DNA of 64,000 nucleotides. It comes from Bdellovibrionales bacterium. GTDB lineage: Bacteria > Bdellovibrionota > Bdellovibrionia > Bdellovibrionales > UBA840. Where the stretch lies: positions 12,755 to 76,754 of the forward strand of contig JBGCGH010000043.1 of NCBI GenBank assembly GCA_045110695.1, in the 5' to 3' direction. Shown here in pieces: positions 30,964-62,540 of the stretch (position 1 is the first letter of the stretch; every line of letters begins with the position of its first letter). The notes beneath the pieces are model-generated. The model was not told the origin of the DNA. It did no database searches and was given only the letters and a program-made list of their open reading frames with translations. The translations under genes were made by a program, and so were the position numbers.

Positions 30964-31560
30964 TTACTTTTGTTCTACCCAGGCGTTATACATGAACTCT
31001 TCTAATTCAACCACACCCTTTTTCTTACTAGAGCTTACAGTGAAGGTCTTCTCAATACCACTAGCTTTTTGAATTTTAAACTTTGCATTCATGGCTTTGT
31101 TCTTACCCAATTTATCTTCTTTTGTCAGAACCAGAATAACATCGGTATTACTCGAGTAAATCCACTCCACCAGCATCGCCTCTTCTTCAGTCCAGTTTCT
31201 GCGGCAATCCATAATCAAAAGTAAGCCCTTTAAATTACCCCTAAGACTAATGTAGGTCTCAATCATACTTTTCCAAGAATCCACTTCTTTGCGACTTCTT
31301 GCTGCGAAACCATAGCCTGGCATATCTACTAGGTAATAGCCTTTACGAACTTCGAAAAAATTAAGGAGTGTTGTCTTTCCGGGGGTTCCTGAGACTTTAG
31401 CTATTCGAGTTCCAAACATTGCGTTGATTAAGGAGCTTTTACCCGCGTTGGAACGACCGATGACTCCTATTTCAGGTAAGGCATCTGGGTTTACTGGGTA
31501 CTGCTCAGGGACTACGGCGCTGGTGATGAATCGAATTTTTCCGTTTCCTGTTAATTTCAT
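30964..31560 (-). CDS. engB: Ribosome biogenesis GTP-binding protein YsxC/EngB
   Basis: 198 aa. GRSNAGKSSLINAM (G1), DMPGYG (G3), TKEDK (G4). Confidence 0.9.
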   Translation of the reverse strand: MKLTGNGKIRFITSAVVPEQYPVNPDALPEIGVIGRSNAGKSSLINAMFGTRIAKVSGTPGKTTLLNFFEVRKGYYLVDMPGYGFAARSRKEVDSWKSMIETYISLRGNLKGLLLIMDCRRNWTEEEAMLVEWIYSSNTDVILVLTKEDKLGKNKAMNAKFKIQKASGIEKTFTVSSSKKKGVVELEEFMYNAWVEQK

Positions 31561-31746
31561 GGTTTGCCATCCGGGTTGTTTTTGGGAGTTTACTACAATT
31601 GTTGGGGGGCGGCAAAAGGGATGGAAAGAAATACAGAGGTTTTTGGGGTTTAGAGGATGAGGGTTTGGGGTGGGGTATTTGGTTGAGGCTTACAGAGGTT
31701 TGCGAGGGTTCTGCCAAAACCGAATGGCTGTGTCCGTGCTCAGACA
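31561..31746. repeat. G/T-rich tract plus the left remnant of a REP-like repeat (left flank of the IS)
   Basis: GGGG/GGG runs (e.g. gagggtttggggtggggtatttgg). 31639-31682 aligns by eye with 62178-62216. 31731-31746 (tgtccgtgctcagaca) is identical to 62260-62275. Confidence 0.6.
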
Positions 31747-31962
31747 TATATGGACCCGCCACTCTGCACAATAGAGAATGTAAAAAATAGAATGCGTACA
31801 TATATTTGACTTCATTGGTCTATTTCCAAGAGCCTAGATGAAATTCGCTGCCTTAACTCCTCATCAGTCCTATGGACTCAATAAATTGGTCCTCTGTCTG
31901 CGATAGTTTTTTTTAAGGCTTTTTCTTCTTTTAACCATCTACATTTGTGCATTTCGAACTGT
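31747..31962 (-). ncRNA. Candidate seekRNA/bridge RNA region of the IS (non-coding 3' end)
   Basis: 216 bp non-coding region 3' of the transposase. Contains GTCCTC+TGTCTG (31889-31900), which matches the two target half-sites on opposite strands. Also contains TCATCAGTCC-TATGGAC (31861-31877), which resembles the IS ends. No fold or covariance model was run. Confidence 0.4.
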
Positions 31963-32982
31963 TTAAATATCTATATACTCACCACCGTTTTTCAAAATAG
32001 CTATCATTCCTCGTACATTTTTATTCGCCAGAGATATAGCTGCACTATTAAAACCCTTTCTATTTACCTGTTCATTTATCCACCTATTTTGTTTCGATAA
32101 ATCACCTTTTCTCATTGCAGAAATAACCTTCGCTCTTGCTCCTTGAACTACCAACCTACGTAAATCCTTGTCCCCTGATTTTGTTAGCCTTGTTAATACT
32201 GTTTTTCCTCCAGTACTTCGTTGACCTGGCACTAGCCCTAGCCATGCTGATCCATGTCGGCCATTTCTAAAATTCCTAGCGTCACCTGCACTGGCTAGAA
32301 ACAATGTCGCCGTTAAAAAACCTACCCCTGGAAAACTCATTAAGCGCTTACAGCTCTCACATTGCTTTGCTATTTCTTTTAACTTATTTGTATAGTTTTT
32401 TTCCTTTTCAATGGTCTCTAAAATCTCGGCGAACTGAACCCTTACCAAATCAAGAAATACATGGCTGTGACCAAATTCATCCTTGCAGAGAAGTTCTCTA
32501 ACCCCTTCCATCAAGCCTGTACTTCCTTTCGGGAAAGTGTATCCATACTCCATAAGTAAGCCCCTTAATTGATTAGATAGACTCACTCTATTTCTAACTA
32601 AAATATCACGTACCCTGTGAAGAGATTGAATATCTTGTTGTGATTCCGTCTTGATCCCTACCACTGTTGCCCTTGGTCTACGACCCGCTTCAATAATTGC
32701 AAAGCCATCGTTCTTGTCGTTTTTCTGTCCCTTTACAAAAGGTTTTACATCCTGAGCTGGTATAAGCTTTACATCGATATTTAGCTTAATAAATTCTCGA
32801 GCCCAATAATGCGCACCTCCACATGCCTCCATATAGATGCAGTCTGGTTCAAGGTTTAGCACCTCCAAGAGGACCCTTTTTCTAGCCACCTTCTTACTCA
32901 TTAAGACCTTGTTATCATCATCATTTACTGCACAAAAATAAAAACTTTCTTTTGCCAAATCGATTCCTAATAGTTTACTCAT
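31963..32982 (-). CDS. IS110-family transposase/recombinase (DEDD N-terminal domain + Transposase_20 C-terminal domain)
   Basis: 339 aa. LLGIDLAKESFYF, IYMEACGGAHYWAREF, KNDKNDGFAIIEAG. C-terminal FPGVGFLTATLFLASAGDARNF...LGLVPGQRSTGGK. Confidence 0.92.
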   Translation of the reverse strand: MSKLLGIDLAKESFYFCAVNDDDNKVLMSKKVARKRVLLEVLNLEPDCIYMEACGGAHYWAREFIKLNIDVKLIPAQDVKPFVKGQKNDKNDGFAIIEAGRRPRATVVGIKTESQQDIQSLHRVRDILVRNRVSLSNQLRGLLMEYGYTFPKGSTGLMEGVRELLCKDEFGHSHVFLDLVRVQFAEILETIEKEKNYTNKLKEIAKQCESCKRLMSFPGVGFLTATLFLASAGDARNFRNGRHGSAWLGLVPGQRSTGGKTVLTRLTKSGDKDLRRLVVQGARAKVISAMRKGDLSKQNRWINEQVNRKGFNSAAISLANKNVRGMIAILKNGGEYIDI

Positions 32983-33078
32983 AATTTTGGACTCTCCCTC
33001 TAATTCAAATAATAATTAAACTATTATTTCGGCACTGCCTAAGCAAGATGTCATAAAAGGGGCGGGTCCATTTCATTA

Positions 33079-33155
33079 GTCCTCCGCGCCCTTGGCTTGT
33101 GCGGAACTGCGCGCGGACAAGTCAGGTTTAATTTGAAAATAGAATTAGTAAGAAG
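33079..33155. repeat. Right part of the REP-like repeat interrupted by the IS
   Basis: gtcctcc...gtgcggaactgcgcgcggacaag...tttaatttgaaaatagaattagtaagaag aligns with 62276-62350 (7-nt and 23-nt identical blocks, diverged elsewhere). Confidence 0.75.
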
Positions 33156-33196: not shown

Positions 33197-33226
33197 TAAA
33201 AAAAGGCAAACCCGAGGGTTTGCCTT
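33197..33226 (-). terminator. Rho-independent terminator after the porin gene
   Basis: GGCAAACCC and GGGTTTGCC form a stem (33205-33224). On the minus strand it is followed by a T-run (A-run 33198-33204 on plus). Confidence 0.7.
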
Positions 33227-33253: not shown

Positions 33254-34234
33254 TTAGAACTTAGCATGCCAGTTCCACATAAGAGTTGCAGGATCGTCTG
33301 CACCGTCAGTAGAAACGTCAGTCATAGTGTAGAAAACACCGTTCTGTAAACCTTTTGCAAGATTCCAAGTGTAACCCAACTTGATTTGGCTTGTAATAGT
33401 AGTAGCCGTTTCAAGATCTTCTGGGTGAGACTGGTAATGGAAATAGATGTCGTTCATCTCAGATAGAGCGTACTGAAGAGCTAGTCTGAAACCAGTTAAA
33501 GTAGCGTCTCTTCCGTCAAGATCACCAGAAATATACTCTAGTTGACCTTTGATCATGTCAGACATGTAGTTAAGAACTAAAGCCATTTGAGTAGAAGCCT
33601 TTTCAGTAGTTCCATCATCAGACTCGCTGTTTGAGTTGTAGAAGAAATCTACGCCAAACATACCCATCTCATAACCTAAAGAAAGTGCGTAACCGATAGC
33701 AGCATCAGCTTGACCTGACTCTAGAGAAGTCTGCTGACCGTTGTGAAGATCGATACCGTACTTGAAAGCACCGCTCATGTTACCATAACGAATACCAGCG
33801 TGCTCTTCACTTAGCTCAACATAAGTTGATCCAAGTTGTTGAAGCATAGCTTCTGAGTGCCAACGTTGGTTTAAGTTCTTGTATACTGTAGCTTTATAAA
33901 GGTTGGAAAAAACACCAAACTTCATGTGGTCGCCACCAGTAAATACGTCTTTACCTTTAATGTATGCTTTACGTAAGAAAGCATCACCTGTTACACCGCT
34001 TGTTTGAGCAGTCTGTAAAGAAAGTTTTGCACTCCAGTTATCATTGAAAGAATGATGACCAGAAATTCGAACTCTTTCTACTCCGAAACCCATTGCTGAT
34101 GTATCGTCAGCAGTCTTAGCACTTGTTTCGTAACTAAAGTTACCCAAGATGCTTCCGTGGATTCCACTGTGTTTTGCCATTGCTGTGCCACCTACTAAAG
34201 ATGCGGCCGCAACTAATAATGTAAGTTTTTTCAT
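33254..34234 (-). CDS. Outer-membrane porin (beta-barrel)
   Basis: 326 aa. Signal peptide MKKLTLLVAAASLVGGTAMA, alternating beta-strand pattern, C-terminal ...WNWHAKF. Codon usage looks visibly biased and it has its own terminator, which suggests high expression. Confidence 0.7.
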   Translation of the reverse strand: MKKLTLLVAAASLVGGTAMAKHSGIHGSILGNFSYETSAKTADDTSAMGFGVERVRISGHHSFNDNWSAKLSLQTAQTSGVTGDAFLRKAYIKGKDVFTGGDHMKFGVFSNLYKATVYKNLNQRWHSEAMLQQLGSTYVELSEEHAGIRYGNMSGAFKYGIDLHNGQQTSLESGQADAAIGYALSLGYEMGMFGVDFFYNSNSESDDGTTEKASTQMALVLNYMSDMIKGQLEYISGDLDGRDATLTGFRLALQYALSEMNDIYFHYQSHPEDLETATTITSQIKLGYTWNLAKGLQNGVFYTMTDVSTDGADDPATLMWNWHAKF

Positions 34235-62223: not shown

Positions 62224-62350
62224 CCTCTTCTTTATTCTAATTTCAAACTAAAGCTGGCTTGTCCGTGCTCAGACAGTCCTCCTCGCGGGGCTCGTGCGGA
62301 ACTGCGCGCGGACAAGCCAGCTTTAGTTTGAAATTAGAATAAAGAAGAGG
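62224..62350. repeat. REP-like palindromic element: 42-bp perfect inverted arms around a 43-bp GC-rich core. This is the uninterrupted paralog of the IS target.
   Basis: 62224-62265 (cctcttctttattctaatttcaaactaaagctggcttgtccg) is the exact reverse complement of 62309-62350. The core 62266-62308 contains gctcagaca|gtcctcc. Confidence 0.9.
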
Positions 62351-62540
62351 GCTCTTTTCTTGGAATTTATGATGGGGGGGAAGTGAAAGGATGGTGATGG
62401 GGTGGTGGTGTTTTGGGACTGGTGGGGGGGGGGTGTGTAGAAAGTATAGGGTTGGTTGCTTGTTTATTGGGGGATGGGAGTGAGAAGGGGGTGGTTTTGA
62501 TTGGGGTGGTGGCATAGGGATTGCTGTATTAAGGGGTAGA
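62351..62540 (+). repeat. G/T-rich, C-depleted low-complexity tract with G7 and G10 homopolymers
   Basis: By my count only 7 C in 190 nt. G7 at 62374-62380, G10 at 62424-62433. Run pattern GGGGG-at-GGG-agtgagaa-GGGGG-tggttttgatt-GGGG at 62469-62506. Confidence 0.85.

What the first reader, a model, noticed from the sequence alone, without database searches (positions are those of the whole stretch)
31747..33078. IS1111-type element in a REP-like repeat: exact borders from an in-window empty site, and a TATAAT created by end-joining
The flanks ...tgtccgtgctcagaca|IS|gtcctcc...gtgcggaactgcgcgcggacaag... match the uninterrupted ...tgtccgtgctcagaca-gtcctcc...gtgcggaactgcgcgcggacaag... at 62260-62331. 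This places the element at 31747-33078 (1-nt ambiguity, no obvious target duplication). It has sub-terminal 10-bp IRs (tggacccgcc/ggcgggtcca), and the long non-coding end is 3' of the transposase; both are IS1111-subgroup traits. Joining the two ends as in the circular intermediate gives, in transposase sense, ...TTGTGC-agagtggcgggtccata-TA|TAAT-gaaatgg. That is a perfect -10 hexamer spanning the junction, 17 bp from a TTG-type -35 and 96 nt upstream of the transposase ATG. Junction promoters and REP targeting are known for IS110-family elements.
Basis: partly seen in the sequence, partly recalled or inferred. Interest (0 to 1): 0.7.

Follow-up and report, generated by a model that had tools for sequence, protein, structure and literature searches.

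The report
New RNA-guided IS1111-type insertion sequence
This is an intact, previously unnamed insertion sequence of the well-known IS1111/IS110 kind, sitting in a palindromic repeat. It carries the guide ("seek"/"bridge") RNA that explains its exact target choice, so it is a clean but ordinary example.

Summary

**What is there**
- A 1332-bp element lies at 31747-33078, with its transposase on the minus strand.
- It splits a sequence that occurs uninterrupted at 62260-62282. One base is shared, and there is no target duplication.
- It has 11-bp sub-terminal inverted repeats, a 96-nt 5' end and a 216-nt 3' non-coding end.
- Joining the two ends gives TTGTGC-17 bp-TA|TAAT.

- The 3' end encodes a two-loop seekRNA/bridge RNA at 31792-31921 (minus strand).
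- One loop carries CAGACAG, complementary to the top strand across the insertion point, and AGGACUG, identical to the top strand.
- The other loop carries AUUUCAU, complementary to the left end, and AUAUAUG, identical to the right end plus the shared T.

**Support for the guide RNA**
- A covariance model built without this element or its closest relative, from 11 relatives including ISEc11 and IS4321, finds only this site in 64 kb (46.5 bits, E about 3e-9).
- Guides co-vary with targets and ends across 12 elements (0 of 20,000 permutations reach the observed match).
- The junction promoter pattern recurs in the relatives, with a caveat for ISEc11.

**Verdict**
This is a new member of a known kind, about 60% identical to the nearest unnamed relative and about 36% to ISEc11. 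It is not surprising to a specialist.

**Side observation**
The two flanks come from different subtypes of the palindromic repeat. This points to recombination between two copies of the element, or to an assembly chimera at the element.

The parts
31747..33078 (-). Whole insertion sequence, 1332 bp. It could equally be placed at 31746-33077, because one base is shared with the target.
   Evidence: Flanks compared with the empty site. The same ends are found in L003.
33078..33078 (-). Shared crossover ('core') base, T in transposase sense. Its twin is at 31746. It occurs only once in the empty site, at 62275.
   Evidence: The same 1-nt overlap was verified for IS4321 against the intact Tn21-type inverted repeat.
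32983..33078 (-). Left end and 5' untranslated region, 96 nt. It begins T AATGAA, followed by the sub-terminal repeat.
33061..33071 (-). Left sub-terminal inverted repeat, ATGGACCCGCC.
31963..32982 (-). DEDD transposase/recombinase gene, 339 aa. D8, E52, D89 and D92 are invariant, and the G249-L-V-P-GQRS-T257-G258 motif is present.
   Evidence: NCBI protein MFK8138552.1, 'IS110 family transposase', Bdellovibrionales MAG.
31747..31962 (-). Right end: the 216-nt 3' non-coding region.
31792..31921 (-). seekRNA/bridge RNA with two internal loops.
   Evidence: Leave-out covariance model R2 gives 46.5 bits, E 3.3e-9, and this is the only hit in 64 kb. Model R1 gives 91.6 bits.
31850..31919 (-). Target-binding domain. 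The outer helix is GCCUUAA (31913-31919) paired with UUAAGGC (31850-31856).
   Evidence: All 7 pairs show compensatory changes among 13 elements. The helix is also in the single-sequence MFE fold.
31894..31900 (-). 5' target guide CAGACAG. It is complementary to the top strand C|T|GTCTG, i.e. the shared base plus the right flank.
31874..31892 (-). Inner hairpin, GGAC-loop-GUCC.
   Evidence: Three of the four pairs co-vary.
31865..31871 (-). 3' target guide AGGACUG. It is identical to the top strand AGGAC|T|G, so it pairs with the bottom strand.
31794..31848 (-). Donor-binding domain. The outer helix is GCG (31846-31848) paired with CGC (31794-31796). The inner hairpin is at 31808-31834.
31838..31844 (-). 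Left-donor guide AUUUCAU, complementary to left-end positions 2-8 (ATGAAAT).
   Evidence: It co-varies with the left end across elements.
31799..31805 (-). Right-donor guide AUAUAUG, identical to the right-end tip ATATA plus the shared T plus G.
   Evidence: It tracks the variant right ends ATAGA, ATCTA and ATGTA in IS4321, L019 and L001.
31766..31771 (-). -35 hexamer TTGTGC of the junction promoter.
   Evidence: TTGnnn lies at this position in all 13 elements.
31750..31760 (-). Right sub-terminal inverted repeat, GGCGGGTCCAT.
31747..31748 (-). Right-end half (TA) of the junction -10 hexamer. The other half, TAAT, is at 33075-33078.
62224..62350 (.). Unoccupied copy of the target repeat. It is a palindrome with 49-nt arms and a 29-nt centre.
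62270..62280 (-). Intact composite target AGGAC-T-GTCTG, in the same orientation as the element. The crossover base is 62275.
   Evidence: It is the only exact match in the window.
31709..31746 (+). Flank on the right-end side: half of an 'A-type' palindrome (ttctgccaaaaccgaatggctgtgtccg...).
33079..33150 (+). Flank on the left-end side: half of a 'B-type' palindrome, like 62277-62350. It is not the partner of the other flank.

Best explanation
The element is a complete and probably functional insertion sequence of the IS1111 group of the IS110 family. It has not been named. It moves by RNA-guided site-specific recombination.

**Shown by sequence**
- It encodes a DEDD recombinase.
- Downstream of that gene it encodes a roughly 126-nt two-loop seekRNA/bridge RNA.
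- The two strands of the first loop match the two DNA strands of the target around the insertion point: CAGACAG with the top strand C-T-GTCTG, and AGGACUG with the bottom strand of AGGAC-T-G.
- The two strands of the second loop match the element's own ends: AUUUCAU with the left end ATGAAAT, and AUAUAUG with the right-end tip plus the shared T.
- Donor and target share only one base, a T. This explains the 1-nt border ambiguity and the absence of a duplication.

**Inferred from characterised relatives (ISEc11, IS621)**
- The element excises as a circle with its ends abutted.
- Only then do the -35 in the right end and the split -10 (TA|TAAT) form a strong promoter.
- That promoter transcribes the recombinase gene and, downstream of it, the guide RNA.
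- The ribonucleoprotein then inserts the circle, in one orientation, at the edge of the central loop of a palindromic repeat.
- In the chromosome the copy should be nearly silent. It has no -10 and sits behind a terminator at 33203-33226.
For: **Borders, repeats and architecture**
-.

**Protein**
- Pfam DEDD_Tnp_IS110 and Transposase_20.
- Invariant D8/E52/D89/D92 and the GLVP..TG motif.
- 35-36% identity over 98% of the length to ISEc11 and IS4321.

**Guide RNA**
- Model R2, built without this element or its 60% relative, hits only 31792-31921 on the minus strand: 46.5 bits, E 3.3e-9, next best 10.5 bits.
- RNAalifold on a plain MAFFT alignment predicts three of the helices, and 10 of 13 pairs show compensatory change.
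- On the curated alignment 96.6% of cells are paired, against 27-41% when partners are slid. Fourteen of 18 pairs change on both sides.

**Guide-to-DNA matching across 12 elements with different targets**
- Summed longest exact matches of own pairs against permuted pairs were 97 vs 45.5, 86 vs 45.8, 71 vs 48.1 and 82 vs 58.1.
- No permutation out of 20,000 reached the observed value in any of the four tests (matrices).

**Other support**
- The junction promoter pattern recurs in the relatives.
- The same architecture is visible in ISEc11, whose seekRNA was shown experimentally to bind the transposase and to be required and reprogrammable (PMC11187229).
- A second copy with identical ends exists.
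- The 60% relative sits in the same target core in at least 3 contexts.
Against: - No experimental data exist for this element. The circle, the RNA and transposition are all inferred.
- Only two copies are known, the window and L003, and they share the flank on the right-end side. Two metagenome scans found no more.
- The 5' target guide pairs over only 7 contiguous nt; a G in the RNA mismatches the next target position.
- The single-sequence fold is not strikingly stable (z = -1.63).
- The curated alignment was fitted by hand to the structure.
- In ISEc11 the short seekRNA, which appears to be the target domain alone, sufficed for transposition (PMC11187229). The need for the second loop is therefore uncertain.
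- No Rfam family covers this RNA, so there is no curated benchmark.
Confidence: 0.9

Rival explanations
1. Target choice is made by the protein recognising the shape or sequence of the REP-like hairpin, which was the view before 2024. On this reading the 3' non-coding end is only a spacer or a promoter carrier.
For: - The target lies at the edge of the loop of a palindrome with 49-nt arms.
- Several IS110-family elements are known to sit in REPs (PMC12288879; references).
- A 2026 preprint reports a combined sequence and structure requirement for ISPpu10 (listed; abstract only, not read).
Against: - Guide segments co-vary with targets across 12 elements whose targets are unrelated. These include linear targets such as the IS66 tnpB site of ISEc11.
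- The non-coding region matches a structural model of validated seekRNAs.
- Structure may still add specificity, so the two ideas are not exclusive.
Confidence: 0.05
2. The copy is an inactive relic. It looks intact but no longer moves, and the perfect junction promoter is simply inherited.
For: - There is only one copy in 64 kb.
- A perfect target 29 kb away is unoccupied.
- Very few copies are found in public data.
Against: - The ORF is full length with all catalytic residues.
- Both ends, both loops and the immediate flanks are intact.
- The mismatched palindrome halves imply that at least two copies existed in this lineage.
Confidence: 0.12
3. The TATAAT across the joined ends is a chance product of AT-rich termini and has no promoter role.
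For: - The ends are AT-rich.
- The -35 matches the consensus at only 3 of 6 positions.
- A consensus scan of the integrated element finds as many promoter-like sites as in shuffled sequence: 5 against 4.0 +/- 2.1.
Against: - TTGnnn, 16-18 bp, TA + base + AAT recurs in elements only 35-60% identical.
- The right end always finishes in ..A and the left end always starts AAT.
- An active junction promoter has been shown for ISEc11 (Prosseda 2006, as cited in PMC11187229).
Confidence: 0.03
4. About the side observation only: the join of an A-type and a B-type palindrome half across the element is a metagenome-assembly chimera through a repeated element, not a real chromosomal rearrangement.
For: - The window is from a MAG contig.
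- L003, from another sample, has the same engB-side flank but a matching A-type half on the other side.
- A 1.3-kb repeat is a classic place for a mis-join.
Against: - Nothing in the sequence distinguishes a chimera from a rearrangement.
- Gene strand and GC skew switch about 1.2 kb away rather than at the element.
- Homologous or RNA-guided recombination between two copies would give the same picture.
Confidence: 0.4

Closest known systems
ISEc11 (IS1111 group; E. coli/Shigella plasmids)
   Same: - The transposase is 339 aa in both.
- Both have sub-terminal inverted repeats.
- The left end has the form AATxxxATG and the right end the form ...CATATA.
- The -35 TTGnnn lies in the right end.
- The non-coding region lies downstream of the gene and has the same two-loop RNA layout, with the top-strand guide 5' of the bottom-strand guide.
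- The left-donor guide follows the left end: AUUACAU with ATGTAAT in ISEc11, AUUUCAU with ATGAAAT here.
- A seekRNA and a junction promoter have been shown experimentally for ISEc11 (PMC11187229).
   Different: - Protein identity is only about 36%.
- The target is unrelated: GTGAAAATACTG inside IS66 tnpB, which is not a palindrome.
- Donor and target overlap by 4 nt (AAAT) in ISEc11, against a single T here.
- The ISEc11 junction is one base shorter.
[quoted passage not shown]
   Same: - The end structure is the same: T AATGAGATGG... at the left and ...CCATAGA T at the right.
- There is a single shared T and no duplication. This was verified against the intact inverted repeat.
- The guide layout is the same.
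- The right-donor guide AUAGAU tracks the variant right end.
   Different: - Protein identity is about 35%.
- The target is a transposon terminal repeat, not a chromosomal palindrome.
ISPa11 (IS1111 group, in Pseudomonas aeruginosa REPs) and ISPpu9/ISPpu10/IS621 (IS110-family elements found in REPs)
   Same: They insert at a fixed position and in a fixed orientation in repeated extragenic palindromes. ISPa11 yields a seekRNA from its downstream non-coding region (PMC11187229).
   Different: - The ISPa11 sequence was not compared here.
- IS621 belongs to the IS110 group. Its guide RNA lies upstream of the gene, it has no long sub-terminal repeats, and it uses a CT dinucleotide core.
- Only 76 aa of the C-terminal domain align with the protein here.
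Unnamed relative P0002 (60% identical; marine and other metagenomes, L004-L009)
   Same: - The right end is the same.
- The left end is nearly the same (AATGAGATGG).
- The junction promoter is the same (TTGCGC-17-TATAAT).
- The 3' target guide AGGACUG is the same.
- It sits in the same target core, GGAGGAC-T-GT(T/C)TGAGCA, in at least 3 contexts.
   Different: - The helices carry compensatory changes: GUUUCAG/CUGAAAC and GGCU/AGCC.
- Its 5' guide CUCAGACAG fits the window's target perfectly, but fits its own target only through a G-T wobble.

Membership tests
IS1111 group of the IS110 family | DEDD (RuvC-like) transposase with the Pfam pair PF01548 + PF02371, 330-350 aa long | tested here: met
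   - 339 aa, with both domains.
- D8, E52, D89 and D92 are invariant in an 11-protein alignment.
IS1111 group of the IS110 family | C-terminal GL-P----S(t)G motif (PMC11187229) | tested here: met
   G249-L-V-P-G-Q-R-S-T257-G258. G, L, P and G are invariant in the alignment.
IS1111 group of the IS110 family | Sub-terminal inverted repeats of 7-17 bp, with short terminal extensions | tested here: met
   An 11-bp repeat, ATGGACCCGCC / GGCGGGTCCAT. The extension is 6 nt (plus the shared T) on the left and 3 nt on the right.
IS1111 group of the IS110 family | The longer non-coding region lies downstream of the transposase gene | tested here: met
   216 nt downstream against 96 nt upstream.
IS1111 group of the IS110 family | Transposase related over its full length to IS1111-group transposases rather than to IS110-group ones | tested here: met
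   - 35-36% identity over 98-99% of the length to ISEc11, IS4321 and IS5075.
- Only residues 210-285 align to IS621 and ISCro4.
- IS1111 of Coxiella itself was not compared.
IS1111 group of the IS110 family | Insertion at one specific sequence, in one orientation, without target duplication | tested here: met
   - Empty site in the window.
- Same ends in L003.
- The 60% relative lies in the same core at least 3 times.
- Only two copies of this exact element are known.
seekRNA / bridge-RNA-guided recombinase system | A structured RNA in the non-coding end whose internal-loop strands match both strands of the target | tested here: met
   - CAGACAG and AGGACUG are present.
- The leave-out model hits the site.
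- Permutation tests give 0/20000.
- The helices co-vary.
seekRNA / bridge-RNA-guided recombinase system | A second loop matching the donor, i.e. the element's own ends | tested here: met
   AUUUCAU and AUAUAUG are present, and they co-vary with the left and right ends across elements.
seekRNA / bridge-RNA-guided recombinase system | The RNA is made, binds the recombinase and is required for transposition | not testable with these tools
   This needs RNA-seq, co-purification and genetics. It has been shown for ISEc11, ISPa11 and ISKpn4 (PMC11187229).
IS1111 group of the IS110 family | A circular intermediate with abutted ends and an active junction promoter | not testable with these tools
   Only the sequence prediction could be made, TTGTGC-17-TATAAT, and the pattern is conserved in relatives.
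REP (repetitive extragenic palindrome) as target | A short intergenic palindrome present in many copies in the genome | tested here: inconclusive
   - The sequence is palindromic and intergenic.
- Only one intact and one split copy lie in 64 kb.
- The genome-wide copy number is unknown.
- At 127 bp the intact copy is longer than a classical REP.

The most novel reading that the evidence does not exclude
In this clade of IS1111 elements the recombination crossover may need only one base shared between donor and target. That same base is position 3 of the junction -10 hexamer (TA-N-AAT).

Target choice and the strength of the promoter that switches the element on after excision would then be coupled. 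This could explain why the shared base is T in 9, C in 3, A in 1 and G in 0 of the 13 elements.

A second, independent reading concerns the mismatched palindrome halves around this copy. They may record a real chromosomal rearrangement made by recombination between two copies of the element.
Probability: 0.3. Interest if true: 0.4.

Novelty: new member of a known kind. Interest (0 to 1): 0.25.

Why it matters
- **A fully specified natural system.** The element provides recombinase, guide RNA, donor ends, target and an empty site in the same contig, from an under-sampled lineage (a Bdellovibrionales MAG, about 39% G+C).
- **An extra ortholog.** It is one more ortholog for the comparative study and engineering of IS1111-type bridge recombinases.
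- **Annotation value.** The public record names only an 'IS110 family transposase'. The element's borders, its guide RNA and the repeat it targets can now be added.
- **A caution for assemblies.** The mismatched flanks mean synteny across such elements in MAGs should not be trusted without read support.
- **No change to current understanding.** It does not alter the picture of the family.

Tried and rejected
**Searches that found nothing useful**
- Rfam 15 has no family matching the non-coding end, at gathering scores or at E up to 10 (only chance snoRNA/lncRNA hits).
- The single genome-contig scan found only two Acidobacteria relatives at 41-42% identity, and not the source genome.
- Two metagenome scans for the right end found nothing, apart from one chance match inside a gene, L026.
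- Exact-protein look-ups of the two neighbouring genes, engB-like and porin-like, found nothing on record. The ancestral arrangement could not be traced.
- A covariance-model search found no orphan guide-RNA copy elsewhere in the window.

**Ideas dropped**
- GAGGAC in the RNA first looked like a second target match. Relatives have GGCU or GGAU at that position, paired with AGCC or AUCC, so it is the inner helix and the idea was dropped.
- A fixed register of the 5' guide relative to the inner hairpin does not hold. The base opposite the crossover lies 2 or 3 nt from the helix, depending on the element.
- A uniform '1-nt core in 13 of 13 elements' had to be softened. The empty site of ISEc11 shows a 4-nt overlap and a junction one base shorter.
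- A possible internal promoter for the guide RNA (TTGAAA-18-GATATT, 31995-31966, minus strand) is within chance expectation. It is not conserved in the 60% relative.
- The GC-skew and gene-strand switch near 34.3 kb follows gene orientation and lies 1.2 kb from the element. It was not used as evidence for a rearrangement.
Full report
**1. The observation**

- Reading the two loci confirms that tgtccgtgctcagaca (31731-31746) and gtcctcc (33079-33085) flank the element.
- The joined 23-mer occurs once, uninterrupted, at 62260-62282, with none expected by chance.
- A second exact 23-mer, GTGCGGAACTGCGCGCGGACAAG, follows at both loci. The right flanks are 90% identical over 52 nt.
- In transposase sense the integrated copy reads GGAGGAC|T AATGAAATGGACCCGCC ... 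GGCGGGTCCATATA|T GTCTGAGCAC.
- The empty site reads GGAGGAC-T-GTCTGAGCAC. One T is therefore shared and nothing is duplicated.
- The element is 31747-33078, or equally 31746-33077.
- The sub-terminal inverted repeat is 11 bp.
- The ORF at 31963-32982 (minus strand, 339 aa) carries Pfam DEDD_Tnp_IS110 and Transposase_20.
- The 5' end is 96 nt and the 3' end is 216 nt.
- Joining the ends gives TTGTGC-17 nt-TA|TAAT.
- A second copy from an unrelated sequencing run has identical ends. It differs by two base changes in the non-coding region (L003).

**2. Source**

The exact protein is NCBI MFK8138552.1, 'MAG: IS110 family transposase [Bdellovibrionales bacterium]', on an 82-kb contig. The nearest relative in 5.8 billion proteins is 60% identical and unnamed. 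All others are 50% or less. The named elements ISEc11, IS4321 and IS5075 are 35-36% identical over the full length.

**3.

Since 2024, IS110/IS1111 elements are known to use an RNA from their long non-coding end to select the target and to hold the donor. It is called a seekRNA (PMC11187229) or a bridge RNA (PMC11208160). In IS1111-type elements it lies downstream of the gene.

I collected twelve other distinct IS1111-type elements with their flanks. They were the 60% and 50% relatives, six more metagenomic or genomic relatives, a Vibrio and a Klebsiella plasmid element, IS4321 and ISEc11.

An alignment of their 3' ends shows one architecture:
- an outer helix;
- a 5' loop strand ending in a variable segment;
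- a small hairpin;
- a 3' loop strand beginning with a variable 7-mer, followed by a conserved A(U)GAGGAG;
- a second domain made of GC(G), a variable 7-mer and C(U)AGG, a hairpin, then (C)CG(A/G)AUAUAU(G) and (C)GC.

In the window element the parts are:

| Part | Sequence | Window coordinates (minus strand) |
|---|---|---|
| Outer helix | GCCUUAA / UUAAGGC | 31913-31919 / 31850-31856 |
| 5' target guide | CAGACAG | 31894-31900 |
| Inner hairpin | GGAC-loop-GUCC | 31874-31892 |
| 3' target guide | AGGACUG | 31865-31871 |
| Second outer helix | GCG / CGC | 31846-31848 / 31794-31796 |
| Left-donor guide | AUUUCAU | 31838-31844 |
| Second hairpin | | 31808-31834 |
| Right-donor guide | AUAUAUG | 31799-31805 |

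**4. Tests of the guide RNA**

- **(a) Independent detection.** A covariance model built from 11 relatives, without the window element or its 60% relative, finds exactly one site in the 64-kb window. The site is 31792-31921 on the minus strand, at 46.5 bits and E 3.3e-9. The next hit scores 10.5 bits.
- **(b) Structure, unbiased alignment.** RNAalifold on an unedited MAFFT alignment predicts three of the four helices. Ten of 13 pairs are kept through changes on both sides.
- **(c) Structure, curated alignment.** On a hand-curated alignment, 18 pairs are 96.6% paired, against 27-41% when the partners are slid. Fourteen pairs change on both sides. This alignment was fitted to the structure, so (b) is the cleaner evidence.
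- **(d) Guide-to-DNA matching.** I compared each element's loop strands with every element's target or ends, and summed the longest exact matches of the own pairs (12 elements).

| Loop strand | Own pairs | Permuted pairs |
|---|---|---|
| Target loop, 5' strand | 97 | 45.5 +/- 5.6 |
| Target loop, 3' strand | 86 | 45.8 |
| Donor loop, 5' strand | 71 | 48.1 |
| Donor loop, 3' strand | 82 | 58.1 |

No permutation out of 20,000 reached the observed value in any of the four tests.

Some examples of the co-variation:
- The 50% relative inserts in GCTTT-C-AGACTAT and carries AUAGUCUGA and GCUUUCA.
- IS4321 carries AAAACGGAA and UAUUUUC for TTTATT-T-TCCGTTTT.
- Elements with the variant right ends ATAGA, ATCTA and ATGTA carry exactly those pentamers in the RNA.

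ISEc11, whose seekRNA was validated experimentally, fits the same scheme. It carries CAGUAUUUU and GUGAAAAUA for its target, and AUUACAU for the left end ATGTAAT.

**5. The shared base**

- One rule was applied to every element: the left end starts AATNNNATG, and the right end is the sub-terminal repeat plus 3 nt. Under this rule the base before the left end equals the base after the right end in all 13 elements: T in 9, C in 3 and A in 1.
- Empty sites show that this base occurs once in the target for the window element and for IS4321. So it is a 1-nt overlap, the crossover position.
- ISEc11 is an exception in detail. Its empty site shows a 4-nt overlap (AAAT) and a junction one base shorter.
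- For the other ten elements the overlap is inferred.

**6. The junction promoter**

- TTGnnn, 16-18 bp, TA + shared base + AAT is found in the relatives (ISEc11 caveat as above).
- This explains why the right ends finish in ..TA/GA and the left ends start AAT.
- Active junction promoters are documented for the family (PMC11187229, citing Prosseda 2006).
- In the integrated copy the -10 is destroyed: it reads ACTAAT, with no TTG upstream.
- A strong intrinsic terminator at 33226-33203 (minus strand) lies between the upstream porin-like gene and the element.
- Promoter-like sites inside the element are no more frequent than in shuffled sequence. This fits expression only after excision, which is an inference.

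**7. The target**

- The empty copy is a palindrome with 49-nt arms and a 29-nt centre (62224-62350).
- The crossover base, 62275, lies 3 nt into the centre.
- The composite 11-mer defined by the two guides, AGGACTGTCTG, occurs intact only there, and in the same orientation as the element.
- Only these two copies of the repeat exist in the window. 'REP-like' is therefore reasonable but not proven for this genome.
- The 60% relative occupies the same core in at least three different contexts in other metagenomes.

**8. Mismatched flanks**

- The flank on the right-end side is half of an 'A-type' palindrome (ttctgccaaaaccgaatggctgtgtccg).
- The flank on the left-end side is half of a 'B-type' palindrome, like the one at 62302-62350.
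- L003 has the same engB-side flank, but its other flank is the perfectly complementary A-type half.
- The window copy therefore joins halves of two different palindromes.
- Either two copies of the element recombined, or the MAG contig is chimeric at a repeated element. Both readings imply at least two copies in the population. The tools cannot decide between them.

**9. Verdict**

It is completed by the guide RNA, which accounts for the exact borders, the orientation, the lack of duplication and the target choice.

Everything fits the known IS1111 group. The element is a new, unnamed member and not a new kind. Interest is low to moderate, at 0.25.

Noticed in passing
window 31709-31746 versus 33079-33150; L003 1-85 and 1418-1470: The two flanks of the element belong to different subtypes of the palindromic repeat and cannot pair with each other. 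In another sample the same engB-side flank is partnered by its perfect complement. This implies recombination between two copies of the element, or an assembly chimera at the element.
   Followed up: partly
L004 1-1380: Directly upstream of the 60% relative, in the same repeat, lies a second and different IS110-family element (373-aa gene). Its 3' non-coding region contains GCGGAACU, complementary to its own right flank AGTTCCGC. The same sequence, GTTCCGCAC, is part of the repeat in the window. The repeat is therefore a landing pad for at least two elements.
   Followed up: partly
L004 NCR versus window 62268-62276: The 5' target guide of the 60% relative (CUCAGACAG) matches the window's target perfectly over 9 nt. 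It matches its own targets (TGTTTGAG) only through a G-T wobble. The window element's own guide has a mismatch at the eighth position.
   Followed up: no
window 33203-33226 (minus strand): A strong intrinsic terminator (AAGGCAAACCC-TC-GGGTTTGCCTT followed by a T run) follows the porin-like gene at 33254-34234. It would shield the element from read-through.
   Followed up: partly
window 31600-31700 and 62370-62440: Unusual G- and T-rich tracts lie beside both copies of the repeat, for example ggggtggtggtgttttgggactggtgggggggggg. The far-left flanks of the two loci are also weakly similar, so the repeated unit may be larger than the palindrome.
   Followed up: no
window about 34300: Gene orientation and GC skew switch sign here: genes are on the minus strand from 1 to 34.2 kb and on the plus strand from 34.4 to 46.7 kb. 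The cumulative GC-skew minimum is also here, about 1.2 kb from the element. This could be a replication-related switch, or simply divergent operons.
   Followed up: partly
relatives L010, L016, L018, L019, L021, L023, L001 (about 10-20 nt upstream of the outer helix): A conserved motif, (G)ACAGGUAAGACC, precedes the guide RNA in most relatives. It is diverged in the window element (AGAAGAAAAAGCC). It may be a processing or protein-binding site.
   Followed up: no
window 31747-31560: The right end of the element lies 186 nt upstream of the engB-like GTPase gene (30964-31560), on the same strand. The insertion therefore sits in that gene's upstream region. The outward-facing hexamer in the integrated state is poor (TATGTC).
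   Followed up: no
L006 1300-1688: The flank downstream of one copy of the 60% relative contains a second, unoccupied and slightly diverged target-like site (GGCGAAAAAGAC-T-GTTTAAGCATGG). The repeats are therefore clustered there.
   Followed up: no
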